A DNA stretch of 40,016 bases from a virus (taxonomy: Duplodnaviria > Caudoviricetes): positions 1-40,016 of the IMG/VR virus record IMGVR_UViG_3300032261_000031. The stretch is one strand, 5' to 3'. This document shows, in pieces, positions 31,121-40,016 of this stretch. The position numbers and the translations under genes were made by a program. Numbering within the stretch: position 1 is the stretch's first letter; every line of letters begins with the position of its first letter. The notes below the pieces were generated by a model. That model was not told the origin of the DNA, did no database searches, and saw only the letters and a list, made by a program, of their open reading frames with translations.

Positions 31121-31159
31121 GATTTTTTTCCGGCCCGTGAATTTTGCCAACGGTTCGGT

Positions 31160-31188
31160 GTTTACATTTGCCATCCGTTGGGTATCGT
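31160..31188 (+). promoter_or_regulatory. Putative promoter of the RAMP operon (repeat copy 1)
   Basis: GTTTACATTTGCCATCCGTTGGGTAT, 25/26 identical to 33756-33781; TTTACA-N16-TATCGT. Confidence 0.7.
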
Positions 31189-31198
31189 CTCGAGCATT

Positions 31199-32056
31199 AT
31201 GAGCAAAGCAATACTGAAGCAGAAATCGAAAAACCGCGTCGGCGCGCAGGCTGGGGTGTTCGCCGACCGGTTCAAAAACCCGAAAGCGAAACCCAACGGC
31301 GAGGCGGAGTTGGAATTCACGCAGCTGCAGCGCGGCCGCGTGACGTTCTACATCGTCGGCAAGACACCGCTGATCATGAACCGGATGAGCCAGAAGGTCA
31401 TCCGCGGCTTGCTCGCGCCGCCTGGACCGAAGACCAAGGCGGAGAAGCAAGGCTCGATCAAGCACAACCCGCTCGAGGAGTTTCGGGCGAGCGCGCACAC
31501 GCTGCGCGATCCCGAGGCGCCGACGTTGTTGGCGATGCCGGCGACGGCGTTCAAGGGCGCGTTGCGCGACGTGGCGGTCGACATCCCGGGCGCGGCCAAG
31601 GCGCAGATCGGCCGGTTGACCTACATCAACGAGGAATACGTGCCGATCTACGGCGCGCCGCAGCTCTTGATGAGCGTGGTGCGCAACTCGGACATGAACC
31701 GGACGCCCGACGTGCGGACGCGCCTGATCATGCCGCAATGGGCCGCCGTCGTGACGATCACGTTCCAAGTGCCGCTGCTCACCGCCACGCAGATCCGCGA
31801 CCTGTTCGCGGCCGCGGGCGAGATCATCGGCGTCGGAGACTTCCGGCCGCAGAAGGGGCGCGGAAACTACGGGCAGTTCGTCCTGACCACCGCCGAGCAC
31901 ATCGAGCCGATCATGGCCGAGGGCGGCAGGGAAGTGCAAACGCAGGCGTTGGAAAAGCCGGGATTCTACGACGTGGACAGCGAAGAGTTGTTTATGTGGT
32001 ATGACTTAGAGATGGAGCGCAGGGGCCGTTCCAAGAAGGACGGTGACGCGCAATGA
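31199..32056 (+). CDS. Stand-alone RAMP-superfamily (Cas7-like) RNA-binding protein; candidate effector of the adjacent pentamer-repeat RNA array
   Basis: IVGKTPLIMN (first strand with TPL), MPATAFKGALR (cf. RAMP IPGSSLKGALR), Gly-rich loop GVGDFRPQKGRGNYGQF. No other cas gene recognised. Confidence 0.8.
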   Translation: MSKAILKQKSKNRVGAQAGVFADRFKNPKAKPNGEAELEFTQLQRGRVTFYIVGKTPLIMNRMSQKVIRGLLAPPGPKTKAEKQGSIKHNPLEEFRASAHTLRDPEAPTLLAMPATAFKGALRDVAVDIPGAAKAQIGRLTYINEEYVPIYGAPQLLMSVVRNSDMNRTPDVRTRLIMPQWAAVVTITFQVPLLTATQIRDLFAAAGEIIGVGDFRPQKGRGNYGQFVLTTAEHIEPIMAEGGREVQTQALEKPGFYDVDSEELFMWYDLEMERRGRSKKDGDAQ

Positions 32057-32526
32057 GGCCGACCAAACTTCAAGAGCGCGACCGCAAGGCGCTGCGCAAG
32101 CTGGAAAAGGACGGAAGGTTGAACAAGCACGACGTCGTGGACGCCGCGCGCGACCCGAAGAGCGCGCTGCATCGGCACTTCACGTGGAGCGACAAAAGAT
32201 GCGGCGAACTGCATCGGGCCGAGGAGGCGCTGTCTCTCATCGAAAGCTATCACGTTCAAATGGTGATCGTCGACCAAGTTATCGACGATCTTCCTTTTTA
32301 CGTGAACGATCCGAGCAAGTCGGCGAAGGATCCCGGTCACATCGCGCTGCCGAAACTGCAGGAAGACAGGCGGCTCGGACTGATCGCGCTCCGAAACGAA
32401 GCGGAGCGGGTTCACTCGGCGCTGACGCGAGCGCGCGGCATAGCGGTCGCGCTCGGGCTGCAAAGCGAACTCGAAAACATGCTGATCGACATGTCGTCCA
32501 TAGTTCAACGAATGAGGGCAGCCTAA
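32053..32526 (+). CDS. Partner protein of the RAMP gene (VVDAARDPKSALHRHFTW family)
   Basis: ATGA overlap with the RAMP gene; ends 13 nt before the array; helical; function unknown. Confidence 0.75.
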   Translation: MRPTKLQERDRKALRKLEKDGRLNKHDVVDAARDPKSALHRHFTWSDKRCGELHRAEEALSLIESYHVQMVIVDQVIDDLPFYVNDPSKSAKDPGHIALPKLQEDRRLGLIALRNEAERVHSALTRARGIAVALGLQSELENMLIDMSSIVQRMRAA

Positions 32527-32539
32527 ACGAATGGGAGGA

Positions 32540-33552
32540 GGCAGACACGGCGCGGTTTGAGCTGGATGGGCTAGGTGGCTTGAGGAGAGGCATGGTGAGG
32601 CAGACAAGTCGTGGAAAACATGCACCGGGTTGGCTGGGTCGGGTATGGCAAGGCGCGGCAGACTTAGCGAGGCTTGGCTTGCCCGCTTTCTGGTCCGGTC
32701 GGGCACCGCGGCGCGAGGCCGGGCGAGGCAGGCAGGGTCCGGCCCGGCGAGGCCGAGGCGGGGTTTGGCAAGGCGCGGTATGGCTTGGCCGAGTGTGGCC
32801 CCGGCGCGGCGAGGCAGACGTGGAAGGACAGGACGCGGCGCGACATGGTCGGACTTAACTAAAAGATGGGCACGGAGGGTCAGAACACGGATGGGCGACG
32901 ATAGTTGTGGCGACGCAGACGCGGTTCGATCCGGCGCGGTTAGGCATGGACTTGGCCGGGCTAGGCGCGGACAGTTCTCGCGGGGCGAGGCAGACAAGGA
33001 CGGGCTGGGCCCGACGGTGGTTAGTCAAGCAGCGGCAGCGAAGGTCACGTTAGCGACCGGATGGGACAGAATCGGCGCGGCAGGTTTGGATAGGCGTTGT
33101 CGAGAATGGAGAGACACGGCACGGTTTGGCGAGGTGAGTCACGGCAGACGTGGTTAGATCCGGCGTAGCAAGGAATGTCATGACCGGACAGGATTCGGTT
33201 CGGCGGCGCAAACAAGGCAGGGACCGGTATGGTCGAACGAGAACTCGACTGGCGCGCAGTGAAATGAAAGGCTCGGACAGGCAGACGTGGCGAGACAAGT
33301 CGCGATTCTGGCCGCGAGAGGTCGGGCGAGAAGTGACCGGGCGCGACGAGGCAGACGAGGTCGGGCATGGTCCGGCGCGTCAAGAAAACGACCGGCATGG
33401 CGCGGGAAGATTAGGTAGGACGCGGCAGACGTGGCCAGGTTGGGCTCGGCAACGACGGATACGGGAAGGTGGGACATGGAACTTTCCGGCTTGGTAGACG
33501 CGGCAGACGTGGTTCGGTTCAGCGTGGCGTGGCGTGGTTCGGTTCGGCAGGC
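32540..33552 (+). ncRNA. Array of 14 units built from GGY-NN-like pentamers and delimited by GGCA-GAC-like markers; putative guide-RNA array
   Basis: Markers at 32540, 32599, 32657, 32727, 32813, 32914, 32989, 33079, 33143, 33207, 33280, 33350, 33424, 33502, 33546. Unit lengths 59, 58, 70, 86, 101, 75, 90, 64, 64, 73, 70, 74, 78, 44. Strong 5-nt periodicity and G-strand bias. The repeat is directly visible; the RNA function is inferred. Confidence 0.8.
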
Positions 33553-33577
33553 GAAAAAAAATTGGAGAGGAAAAAAA

Positions 33578-33712
33578 ATGAAAGCAACGAAGTCGGAGAT
33601 CAGCAAAGTGATGGCGTTTCTCGGCAGCAAGACGAGCGCGCGGAAGAAACGAAGCGCGCGCGCGAACGCGAAGCTGCCGAGGCCGCGGCGGAAAAGGCGG
33701 CGTCATAAGTGA
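33578..33712 (+). CDS. 44-aa highly basic peptide, putative nucleic-acid binding
   Basis: GGAGAGG RBS; MKATKSEISKVMAFLGSKTSARKKRSARANAKLPRPRRKRRRHK. Confidence 0.65.
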   Translation: MKATKSEISKVMAFLGSKTSARKKRSARANAKLPRPRRKRRRHK

Positions 33713-33755
33713 TTCGTAACCAGCCGCTTAAGCGATGAAATAATCGCGTTTTTTC

Positions 33756-33784
33756 GTTTACATTAGCCATCCGTTGGGTATATT
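33756..33784 (+). promoter_or_regulatory. Putative early promoter (repeat copy 2)
   Basis: GTTTACATTAGCCATCCGTTGGGTAT-ATT; TTTACA-N16-TATATT. Confidence 0.7.
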
Positions 33785-33993: not shown

Positions 33994-34410
33994 ATGAACA
34001 CAAAGCAAACCAAAATAGTAACGGGCGCACGCAAAGCGGTGCGCGTCAGTGACCCACTTCCGCAGACTTCACCTGATGTAGCTGCTGAAGTTGCTGAACG
34101 ACATCAGGAAACGCTGCGTCACATAACGGACGCGGGCAATGCGCCGCGTGATATTTCAGATGGACTAGACGCAGCTATCAAAAAAGCTAGGGGTGACCGT
34201 CGCAAGTCTCTGATTTTGCTCAAGGAAGCGGAACAAAATAGAGCCTCTTGGTCACTAGCCAAAAAGCAAGCAAACTCGATTAACGTCAAGCTATCACAGG
34301 AAATTAATAGAGAAAACTGGCTAGAAATTTTAACATTAGCTTACGAATTAAAATCTCTAGCTTTCGAAAGCTATCATGCCGCAATCGCCCGCGCAGAGGA
34401 GGGCAAGTAA
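33994..34410 (+). CDS. Hypothetical protein
   Basis: Likely ATG 33994; AT-rich 3' part. Confidence 0.55.
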   Translation: MNTKQTKIVTGARKAVRVSDPLPQTSPDVAAEVAERHQETLRHITDAGNAPRDISDGLDAAIKKARGDRRKSLILLKEAEQNRASWSLAKKQANSINVKLSQEINRENWLEILTLAYELKSLAFESYHAAIARAEEGK

Positions 34411-34411
34411 T

Positions 34412-34684
34412 ATGACGACACCAAAACAATCGGTAACGGACTCGGGCAATGCGCCGAGTAGCATAAAAGATTGGCAGAAGTCGCCAATGAGTAAGAAACG
34501 TGACCACATTCCGCCGACAGAATACAAAGCGATTCTGCGTCGGTTGCGCAAAGCGCAAAAAACAAACTCCGACCTTGCAGCATCACTCCGGGAAACCGGA
34601 AAAAGCATAGCCTCGGAATACGCTGAGGGAAGCGCGTTCGCCTTTTGGCAAGCCGCCCGAATCCTAACCGGAGAAGCAAAATGA
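34412..34684 (+). CDS. Hypothetical protein (90 aa)
   Basis: GAGGAGG upstream of ATG 34412. Confidence 0.6.
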   Translation: MTTPKQSVTDSGNAPSSIKDWQKSPMSKKRDHIPPTEYKAILRRLRKAQKTNSDLAASLRETGKSIASEYAEGSAFAFWQAARILTGEAK

Positions 34685-38711: not shown

Positions 38712-39053
38712 TCACCCGAGCTCGGGCAAGATCTCGACGACGTTGTAGGAGTTGTTCGGGAACGTGAGTTCTTTCCCGTTGGGAAAAGTCAGTTGCCATT
38801 CCTGCCGGTAAGTGCCGGCGACGGAGACGTCGCTCGGGACCGGGCTGTAATTGAAGCTCGGGCTCGGCGTGTCGGCGGTGTTGATCGTCCCGGCTTGGTT
38901 GATCGAGATCGGCGGCGTCACGGTTTGATTCGAGAGCAGGAACGCGACGGTGCAGCCGACGAGCTGCGCCGGCGTCATCGGGACGCCGTTGATCGACGGA
39001 AAGTCGTTGAAGACGATGTTGGTGTCGTTCTGCTTGATCTCGTAGCGCGTCAT
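38712..39053 (-). CDS. BppU N-terminal-like (Ig-like) virion protein
   Basis: IKQNDT...DVSVAGTYRQEWQLTFPNGKELTFPN motif; ATGA overlap with the repeat protein. Confidence 0.75.
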   Translation of the reverse strand: MTRYEIKQNDTNIVFNDFPSINGVPMTPAQLVGCTVAFLLSNQTVTPPISINQAGTINTADTPSPSFNYSPVPSDVSVAGTYRQEWQLTFPNGKELTFPNNSYNVVEILPELG

Positions 39054-40016
39054 TTGGTCTGCGGCACTTTGAGCCCGCCGCCGGTTTTCGCAACGCCTAA
39101 GTTGCTCCTCGCTCCGGTGACCTTCAACTTCGAGCCCGCGATCCAGCCGACCAGGAATTGAAACTTGCCGATCGCGAACACGCCGACGAACGACAACGTC
39201 GCGCTGAACACCTTCGCGAGCTTGCGCTGAAACGCGCCCGCGAACGCGAGCGTCGCGGCGAACGTTTTGTTGAGCACTCGAGCGAACGCTCCGGTCATGT
39301 TGAGCGTTGCGGTGAACGTCCGCAGAACGAGCCGGAAGCGGGTCAGGATTGCCGCGCTCGAGAGAACCGCGGCGAATGCTTTGAACATGTTCTTCAGTAA
39401 AACCGCGCTGGGGGCGAAGGTGGCGGCGATTATCTTGAAGGTCCGGAGCGACTCAGCCGAGATGAAGCTTAGGTTCGCGGTCAGCGCCTGCGTGTAATGG
39501 TGCGCGCCGCCGGTTAGTTGCGTGCCGAGCCCGCCGATGAACGACAAGGTCGCCGTGAACGCCCGGCTGACGTGCTGCGTGATCGCGAGCGCGCCGATGA
39601 ACGAGAGCACCGCGCTCAAATGTTTCGCGAGCGTGCGCGTAATTGCGCCGACGAAACTAAGCGTCGCACTGATCAGTTTGGCGATCTGACGGCTGATTGC
39701 GCCGGTGAACGAGAGCGCAGCCGTAAACACTTTGGCGATCTGTCGGCTGATTGCGCCGACAAAAGAAAGGACCGCCGCCAACTGCTTGAGCGTCTTGCGA
39801 GTGAGTGCGCCCGTGAAACTCAGAACAGCGGCGACGGCCTTTTGCGTTAGCTTAACCAAGCCGCCCGCAAATGAAAGCGTTGCAGTAAGCGCCTGCGCGT
39901 AATGATGAAACCCGGCGGTGACAAGTGCTCCGGTGAATGAGAGTGTCGCTGTTAATGCCAGCGTCGAGTGGTGAACGGCGGCGGTCGCCATCGCACCGAC
40001 AAACGAAAGCGTGGCA
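39050..40016 (-). CDS. C-terminal part of the 18-aa-repeat protein that starts at 900
   Basis: Repeats such as AVLSFVGAISRQIAKVFT / AALSFTGAISRQIAKLIS; in frame with 1-900 across the overlap. Confidence 0.85.
   Translation of the reverse strand, partial: ATLSFVGAMATAAVHHSTLALTATLSFTGALVTAGFHHYAQALTATLSFAGGLVKLTQKAVAAVLSFTGALTRKTLKQLAAVLSFVGAISRQIAKVFTAALSFTGAISRQIAKLISATLSFVGAITRTLAKHLSAVLSFIGALAITQHVSRAFTATLSFIGGLGTQLTGGAHHYTQALTANLSFISAESLRTFKIIAATFAPSAVLLKNMFKAFAAVLSSAAILTRFRLVLRTFTATLNMTGAFARVLNKTFAATLAFAGAFQRKLAKVFSATLSFVGVFAIGKFQFLVGWIAGSKLKVTGARSNLGVAKTGGGLKVPQTK
39815..40016. repeat. Terminal overlap, copy B
   Basis: 192/202 identical to 1-202. Confidence 0.95.

What the first reader, a model, noticed from the sequence alone, without database searches (positions are those of the whole stretch)
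32540..33552. Array grammar: 4-nt marker plus n pentamers, with the information in the last two bases of each word
Seen: unit 1 parses as GGCA|GACAC|GGCGC|GGTTT|GAGCT|GGATG|GGCTA|GGTGG|CTTGA|GGAGA|GGCAT|GGTGA; unit 12 as GGCA|GACGA|GGTCG|GGCAT|GGTCC|GGCGC|GTCAA|GAAAA|CGACC|GGCAT|GGCGC|GGGAA|GATTA|GGTAG|GACGC. Positions 1-3 are biased to GGC/GGT/GAC/GGA while positions 4-5 vary freely, so this is not a simple satellite. NN strings of clean-phase units: U1 AC GC TT CT TG TA GG GA GA AT GA; U8 TT TA GT CG AT GA AC AC TT GA GA AC; U9 GT TA CC GT AA AT AT CG AG TC TC GG; U12 GA CG AT CC GC AA AA CC AT GC AA TA AG GC. Inference: each unit is one guide specifying about 16-38 target bases non-contiguously. 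If one target base is skipped per word (NN-x-NN-x), the skip could sit on codon wobble positions and resist synonymous escape.
Basis: partly seen in the sequence, partly recalled or inferred. Interest (0 to 1): 0.88.

Follow-up and report, generated by a model that had tools for sequence, protein, structure and literature searches.

The report
Phage VIPR guide array targeting integrases
This five-base repeat array in a soil phage is very likely the guide-RNA array of a VIPR system, an RNA-guided gene-silencing system described in 2026, and two of its 14 predicted guides match integrase genes that are probably those of rival mobile elements, so it is a new example of a known system.

Summary
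32540-33552 has a period of 5 (z 8.9). Word positions 1-3 are biased and 4-5 are free. GGCA markers split it into 14 units, of which only 5 are clean 4+5n.

Upstream lie a gene predicted to fold as a RAMP/Cas7 protein (31199-32056) and a small accessory gene. 79 of 80 viral homolog loci carry such an array.

Under the one-base skip, units 7 and 12 match the catalytic-Arg motif of two tyrosine-integrase families, mostly of Verrucomicrobiota, with skips on wobble bases. Unit 7 scores 26/34 in a Pfam-selected panel, with 0 of 200 shuffles reaching that and other skips at 22. Unit 12 reaches 24/28 but is weaker on controls. No perfect target was found, and 12 units stay at chance.

One small new detail: unit 7 keeps its target register across a 6-nt word, so an extra guide base is either tolerated or a later insertion. 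Expression and silencing were not tested. Verdict: new member of a known kind.

The parts
31161..31188 (+). sigma-70-like promoter candidate of the vipr-vap-array operon; a near copy (25 of 26 nt) lies at 33756-33781
   Evidence: (D8); consensus match only
31199..32056 (+). vipr: stand-alone RAMP/Cas7-like protein, 285 aa from the ATG (the TTG start at 31178 overlaps the promoter candidate)
   Evidence: AF2 pLDDT 82.4; Foldseek top hits Csm/Cas7-11, best E 5e-5; VIA-align Z 9.1, rmsd 3.3, 153 aligned, to a type III-B Cmr chain; 1497 homologs; phrog_4652
32053..32526 (+). vap-like accessory gene, 157 aa, predicted all-helical (low-confidence model); function not shown
   Evidence: overlaps the vipr stop by 4 nt; phrog_15946, the family of the gene after vipr in phage Brocalys; single-sequence model pLDDT 65
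32540..33554 (+). staggered vrRNA-type array: 14 marker-delimited units of 8-19 words plus a terminal marker
32989..33078 (+). unit 7, 17 words with a 6-nt word at 33013-33018; predicted guide against the catalytic-Arg (box I) motif of one tyrosine-integrase family, on the antisense strand
33350..33423 (+). unit 12, 14 clean words; predicted guide against box I of a second tyrosine-integrase family, on the antisense strand
33732..33757 (+). intrinsic-terminator-like hairpin and T run, candidate end of the transcript
   Evidence: consensus match only

Best explanation
The array is very likely the guide-RNA array of a phage-borne VIPR system, in which the Cas7-like protein encoded upstream is predicted to coat each unit and use the last two bases of every word to read DNA two bases at a time, skipping the third, and so would silence genes such as the integrases of competing mobile elements. 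Shown here: the word grammar, the gene order vipr-vap-array, the family-wide pairing of gene and array, and skip-1, wobble-phased matches of units 7 and 12 to integrase catalytic motifs. Predicted: the RAMP fold. Inferred from the published SUSP1 and P. fulva systems: co-transcription from the 31161 promoter, one protomer per word, an R-loop triplex and transcriptional repression rather than cutting. Inferred and untested: the GGCA phase shift (GGCAG sharing its last G with the next word) marks where one guide ends and the next begins; over-long words bulge one base; the host is a Verrucomicrobiota bacterium; and the purpose is to stop resident satellites or prophages from excising during infection.
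For: Period 5 with free positions 4-5. RAMP fold. The G-loop D214-F215-R216 (family consensus D-W-R) and invariant R175 have the same spacing as the SUSP1 residues D177/W178/R179 and R138 (by spacing only, no alignment). 79 of 80 viral homolog loci have a same-strand period-5 array beside the gene; the 80th ends about 360 nt after it. In 29 chosen relative arrays, 161 of 230 marker spacings of 40 nt or more are 4 mod 5. U7: 4 of 251 Chthoniobacterales-order genomes match at up to 3 mismatches and all 4 are integrase box I, 26-28 of 34 read bases. In 98 loci chosen by Pfam PF00589 alone, U7's three best sites (26/34) are all box I, 0 of 200 word shuffles reach 26, and skips 0, 2 and 3 give 22. 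U12: 5 of 15 viral seed hits reach 24/28, all in one integrase group; one of them (L088) was checked and lies beside an excisionase. All 8 variable columns among these five are skip positions (the seed positions could not vary). 9 of 23 GTDB seed hits are integrase box I, 8 of them in Verrucomicrobiota-type records. No self-target was found in the window. Two relatives' guides match other phages' genes at skip 1 on the wobble position: 24/26 on a prohead protease and 23/30 on a terminase.
Against: No perfect target was found; the best matches are 82-86%. A 22-base exact U12 pattern found 0 sites in GTDB. 12 of 14 units show no match beyond chance after allowing for the 14 units tested. In the U7 genome search the reversed control also had 2 hits. 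U12 is not significant in the Pfam-selected panel (21/28; 21 of 200 shuffles), and a non-integrase gene (L129) also scores 24/28 in GTDB. I chose U7 and U12 for follow-up after recognising their decoded motifs. Across 160 guides of relatives, skip 1 shows no overall excess (hits at 85% or more: 11, 23, 16 and 22 for skips 0-3, and 23 for shuffled guides). Only 87 of 179 words have canonical GGY. No vipr homolog was found in 121 Chthoniobacterales-order genomes.
Confidence: 0.88

Rival explanations
1. It is a VIPR array, but partly decayed: the 6/7-nt and internal 4-nt words and the non-GGY scaffolds are later mutations that break the filament phase, so only the longest in-phase run of each unit works.
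For: 9 of 14 units are irregular. In relatives, +1 intervals are rare (10 of 230), and 6-nt words there show no preferred position (13 words spread over positions 1-16). The U7 register would also be kept if the base was inserted after the guide was made.
Against: The array is identical in 4 further studies. The first over-long word sits at word 5 or 6 in 5 of 6 units (P about 0.005). The closest relative, L001 (81% identical Vipr), also has 6-nt words.
Confidence: 0.4
2. The guides mainly act on other targets (host genes, decoy repeats or RNA), and the integrase matches are incidental hits on conserved motifs.
For: The matches are imperfect, 12 units are unexplained, and motif-rich gene families give more near-matches than chance. 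Decoy targeting of host repeats is published (10.64898/2026.10.15.759431, parts 1-2 read).
Against: Two different units fall on the same catalytic motif of two integrase families, on the same strand and in the same codon phase. U7 beats 200 of 200 shuffles in an independently chosen panel.
Confidence: 0.1
3. It is a degenerate satellite or low-complexity coding repeat with no guide function.
For: The region is GC-rich, and overlapping ORFs cross it on both strands.
Against: The period is 5, not 3. Positions 4-5 are at 1.96 bits. The pairing with a RAMP gene holds in 79 of 80 loci. The matches are codon-phased.
Confidence: 0.02

Closest known systems
VIPR systems with staggered vrRNA arrays (bioRxiv 10.64898/2026.04.26.720920, fig. 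S18 legend)
   Same: Phage-borne two-gene vipr-vap locus, GGY/NN or degenerate pentamer words, 1-nt skip on the wobble position, units that overlap by 1 nt, no self-target.
   Different: 14 units of up to 19 words (the paper gives 9-16 repeats). Half of the scaffolds are not GGY. Six units carry 6/7-nt words, and one keeps its target register across such a word. The Vipr is 285 aa, about 30 aa longer than most homologs. The type (I-VII) could not be assigned because figures and data S4 were not visible.
Type II VIPR of phage SUSP1 and P. fulva prophage (10.64898/2026.04.26.720920; .720927; 2026.10.15.759431)
   Same: RAMP protein plus accessory gene; a guide aimed at a recombinase of a competing element and read at codon positions 1-2.
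   Different: No roughly 40-nt conserved tail between guides here, only a 4-nt marker. The targets are integrase families found in Verrucomicrobiota, not an E. coli F5 satellite.
Class 1 CRISPR-Cas (Cas7/Csm3 backbone)
   Same: RAMP fold with G-loop.
   Different: No repeat-spacer array and no contiguous spacers; no Pfam or PADLOC cas family hit for vipr.

Membership tests
VIPR | Stand-alone RAMP homolog with RRM core, thumb and G-loop | tested here: met
   Model pLDDT 82.4; top Foldseek and VIA-align hits are Cas7-group RAMPs (E 5e-5; Z 9.1, rmsd 3.3, 153 aligned); Gly-rich loop at residues 207-225. The thumb was not inspected separately.
VIPR | Membership of the published Vipr clade (X1U2U4 PSI-BLAST set) and type I-VII | not testable with these tools
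   Reference sequences, tables and data S1-S4 were not available; SUSP1 was not among the 30 tblastn hits in the phage collection.
VIPR | Minimal locus: vipr plus one vap gene, no cas operon or CRISPR array | tested here: met
   the same gene pair occurs in phage Brocalys.
VIPR | Adjacent noncoding array of GGY/NN or related pentamers with hypervariable NN | tested here: met
   family-wide in 79 of 80 loci.
VIPR | Viral or proviral location | tested here: met
   Terminase, portal, protease and tail genes; the tool labels G000 a virus record.
VIPR | 1-nt skip targets, skip on codon position 3 | tested here: met
   Met for U7 (26 at skip 1 against 22 at skips 0, 2, 3; 0 of 200 shuffles), supported for U12, not found for the other 12 units.
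VIPR | vrRNAs are expressed, processed and bound by Vipr; targets are repressed | not testable with these tools
   Needs sRNA-seq, pull-down and a reporter assay.
VIPR, staggered-array architecture | Consecutive guides overlap by 1 nt | tested here: met
   Phase shifts by -1 at each GGCA marker; 161 of 230 spacings in relatives are 4 mod 5. Actual RNA ends were not seen.
Type II VIPR (SUSP1-like) | Conserved structured 3' tail of about 40 nt after each repeat tract | tested here: not met
   Units follow one another directly with a 4-nt marker; no repeated 40-nt tail.
CRISPR-Cas class 1 | Direct repeat-spacer array and cas genes | tested here: not met
   No long conserved repeat and no Rfam hit; no Pfam or PADLOC cas family for vipr.

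The most novel reading that the evidence does not exclude
This Vipr lineage reads guides with built-in over-long words. A 6-nt word bulges one base and still counts as one two-read, one-skip step, which allows guides of up to 19 words (about 57 bp of target). Its array is an anti-integrase battery aimed at the catalytic motifs that no integrase of the host's mobile elements can change.
Probability: 0.35. Interest if true: 0.55.

Novelty: new member of a known kind. Interest (0 to 1): 0.32.

Why it matters
The system and its code are in print, so the finding itself is a rediscovery. It adds three things: natural target predictions for a staggered array (the staggered form appears only as a figure in the discovery paper), integrase active-site motifs as targets in a probable Verrucomicrobiota phage, and a testable exception to the strict five-base word. 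If a one-base bulge is tolerated, target prediction and guide design for VIPR should allow it. Searches of the paper library for vrRNA with bulge found 0 papers, vrRNA with staggered found only the discovery paper, and Vipr with Verrucomicrob found 6 unrelated papers. Figures and bioRxiv supplements were not visible and may already show such cases.

Tried and rejected
Self-targeting: none above chance in the window for any of the 14 units.

Chance-level seed hits only: U8 (4 viral hits) and U9 (11); U7 in viral contigs (5); U3 in viral contigs (8); U7 in metagenomes (1 hit, antisense in a long ORF, 5/14 outside the seed).

Genome pattern searches without a credible target: U3 in 301 phylum genomes (1 hit) and in 151 order genomes (8 hits against 2 control, none in an excisionase); U9 (2 of 201); U6 (1 of 251). 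U12 as a 22-base exact pattern gave 0 hits.

My recalled readings of U3 as an AlpA/excisionase motif and of U5 and U6 as integrase catalytic-Tyr motifs were not confirmed and are not claimed. U13's best site (22/30, 6 of 200 shuffles) looks like a tRNA end (recalled shape, no tRNA scan run) and is rejected after multiple testing.

Skips 0, 2 and 3 were compared only on fetched loci, not in the public collections. U1, U2, U4, U5, U10, U11, U13 and U14 were never searched in the collections.

No RNA holder was listed. NN-against-GGY variability could not be measured among strains because the laid contigs were identical, and the L001 array could not be matched unit by unit.

No Pfam, PADLOC or Rfam family was found for vipr or the array. 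The vap model was too poor for a fold search, and the Atlas gave only unnamed viral clusters. Folding of the whole array was uninformative, with no shuffle control. One search found 0 sites because of a spacing error and was redone. No earlier findings were on file.

Full report
Observation. The array starts 13 nt after the stop of a 157-aa gene and runs from 32540 to about 33554 on the + strand. Lag-5 identity is 0.406 against 0.292 in shuffles (z 8.9), and nothing comparable exists elsewhere in the 40 kb. A phase parse gives 14 units opened by a GGCA-type marker. Entropy by word position is 0.78, 1.20, 1.67, 1.96 and 1.96 bits in 81 fixed-phase words; 87 of 179 words start GGY and 30 GAY. 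Only U1, U8, U9, U12 and U14 are clean 4+5n; three units hold an internal 4-nt word and six hold 6- or 7-nt words. Contigs of four other soil runs show no difference in the array.

Surroundings. The contig is a tailed phage with terminase, portal, protease and tail genes. Upstream of the array are a promoter-like site (31161-31188), a 285-aa gene (31199-32056) and the 157-aa gene (32053-32526); a terminator-like hairpin follows at 33732. The 285-aa protein has 1497 homologs and no Pfam family. Its model (pLDDT 82.4) matches Cas7-group RAMPs by Foldseek (best E 5e-5) and VIA-align (Z 9.1, rmsd 3.3, 153 residues; the top 22 rows are all CRISPR effector chains). Of 80 viral loci with a homolog, 79 have a same-strand period-5 array beside the gene. 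In 29 arrays that I picked for having several markers, 161 of 230 spacings of 40 nt or more are 4 mod 5, 43 are 3, 16 are 2, 8 are 0 and 2 are 1. The marker grammar is therefore a family trait, while +1 words are unusually common in this window (6 of 14 units).

What is known. bioRxiv 10.64898/2026.04.26.720920 (whole text read; supplement text searched; figures not seen) defines VIPR: a RAMP gene, a vap gene, GGY/NN guide RNAs, a 1-nt skip that falls on the wobble base, repression of competing phages, seven types, and staggered arrays whose guides overlap by 1 nt. 10.64898/2026.04.26.720927 (parts 1-2 of 6) shows one protomer per word and an R-loop triplex. 10.64898/2026.10.15.759431 (parts 1-2 of 8 and passages) shows SUSP1 VIPR silencing a satellite's excision recombinase. 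10.64898/2026.10.21.760802 (passages) reports non-canonical scaffolds such as GAC/NN.

Targets, unit 12. A 16-base skip-1 seed gave 15 viral hits. Five reach 24 of 28 read bases and are one group of integrases (417 aa in the two listed, L088 and L094; L088 confirmed by PHROG and Pfam, beside an excisionase). A sixth, 22/28, is another integrase by motif. The other nine have 2-4 of 12 bases outside the seed. The guide pairs antisense with the skip on codon position 3, and all 8 columns that vary among the five are skip positions (partly built in by the seed). In GTDB an 18-base seed gave 23 hits. Nine lie on an integrase box I motif (L145 confirmed by Pfam, the rest by motif), and 8 of these are in records titled Chthoniobacterales, Verrucomicrobia(les), Akkermansia(ceae), Opitutaceae, Kiritimatiellales or Lentisphaerae (grouping these as Verrucomicrobiota is recalled). 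Against this, a non-integrase hit also scores 24/28, the 22-base pattern found nothing, and in the independent panel U12's three best sites are box I but at 21/28, which 21 of 200 shuffles reach.

Targets, unit 7. Taking the last two bases of its 6-nt word as NN, the 17 words decode to an integrase box I peptide ending TGQRL. A 24-base pattern at up to 3 mismatches matched 4 of 251 genomes of the Chthoniobacterales-centred order (reversed control 2). All four are tyrosine integrases, 26-28 of 34 read bases, with the unsearched E-W codons matched in all four (one, L153, confirmed by Pfam, and the four align). In 98 loci selected by PF00589 alone (0.86 Mb, leaving out G001 and the loci found through U7), the three best sites (26/34) are box I, 0 of 200 word shuffles reach 26, and skips 0, 2 and 3 give 22. 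With sites anchored only on the peptide read by the 3' words (8 sites in 107 loci), the four words 5' of the 6-nt word match 6.75 of 8 bases at offset 0 against 0.9-3.5 at offsets of -6 to +6, and the long word's own pair matches in 7 of 8. The eight sites are homologs, not independent events. The register is thus continuous across the long word. Whether the complex reads across it is not shown. The first long word lies at position 5 or 6 in 5 of 6 units (P about 0.005), but relatives show no such bias.

Other units and relatives. The remaining 12 units show no credible match in every test run, and eight were never searched in the large collections. Among 160 clean guides of 40 relative loci, skip 1 has no overall excess in the 3.4 Mb held, but one guide matches another vipr phage's prohead protease at 24/26. 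A guide of the closest relative, with a 6-nt word at position 12, matches a terminase at 23/30, 23 of its first 26 bases; this is weak second support for read-through, from 146 guide-model scans. The host is not shown. The integrase matches and 35-39% identical tail-protein homologs in 3 of 251 genomes of that order (no other phylum tested) point to Verrucomicrobiota, while vipr itself was found in 0 of 121 such genomes.

Mechanism and verdict. Most likely the operon is transcribed as one RNA and cut or delimited at the GGCA phase shifts. Vipr coats each unit one word at a time, and the complexes bind integrase and other genes of resident elements and repress them, with synonymous changes invisible to the guide. 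The grammar, gene context and two target classes are shown; the fold is predicted; expression, processing, binding and silencing are inferred from the published systems. It meets every VIPR feature that could be tested here, lacks the type II tail and fits the staggered architecture. New member of a known kind; interest 0.32.

Noticed in passing
L043:5296-5364 against L035:960 (+): A 13-word guide of one vipr phage matches the prohead protease gene (PF04586) of another vipr phage at 24/26 under skip 1, sense strand, wobble skipped; other skips give 19.
   Followed up: partly
L001:5352-5431 against L160 (- strand, position 999): The first guide of the closest relative, with a 6-nt word, matches a terminase large-subunit gene at 23/30, skip on wobble.
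   Followed up: partly
L357:2140-3582 (Mycobacterium phage Brocalys, NC_031262.1, gp45-gp46): A cultured phage has vipr and vap homologs and a GGCA-marked pentamer array upstream of vipr; 30 Mycobacterium and Gordonia phage records carry the vipr homolog.
   Followed up: partly
window 31160-31185 and 33756-33781: A 26-nt element, 96% identical in two copies, each overlapping a sigma-70-like promoter, flanks the VIPR module; a weaker third copy lies at 31136.
   Followed up: no
window 32599-32612, 33266-33279, 33493-33501: Mini-units of one or two words between a marker and a marker-like 4-mer; 9- and 14-nt marker spacings also recur in relatives. Internal 4-nt words are the commonest irregularity in relatives (43 of 230 intervals are 3 mod 5).
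   Followed up: partly
window 33578-33712 (+): A short, very basic ORF of about 44 aa between the array and the terminator-like hairpin; not validly searched (the frame given was wrong).
   Followed up: no
window 34019-34044, 34124-34149, 34434-34459: Three copies of a 26-nt repeat, two of them 92% alike, in two successive small ORFs (D7).
   Followed up: no
window 39642-39764: Tandem repeat of period 54, 2.3 copies, inside ORF 39050-39991.
   Followed up: no
first and last words of the 14 units: The first word starts GAC in 11 of 14 units (six read GACGT) and the last ends in GA or GC in 10 of 14, so the end words may be part of the boundary signal rather than target-specific.
   Followed up: no
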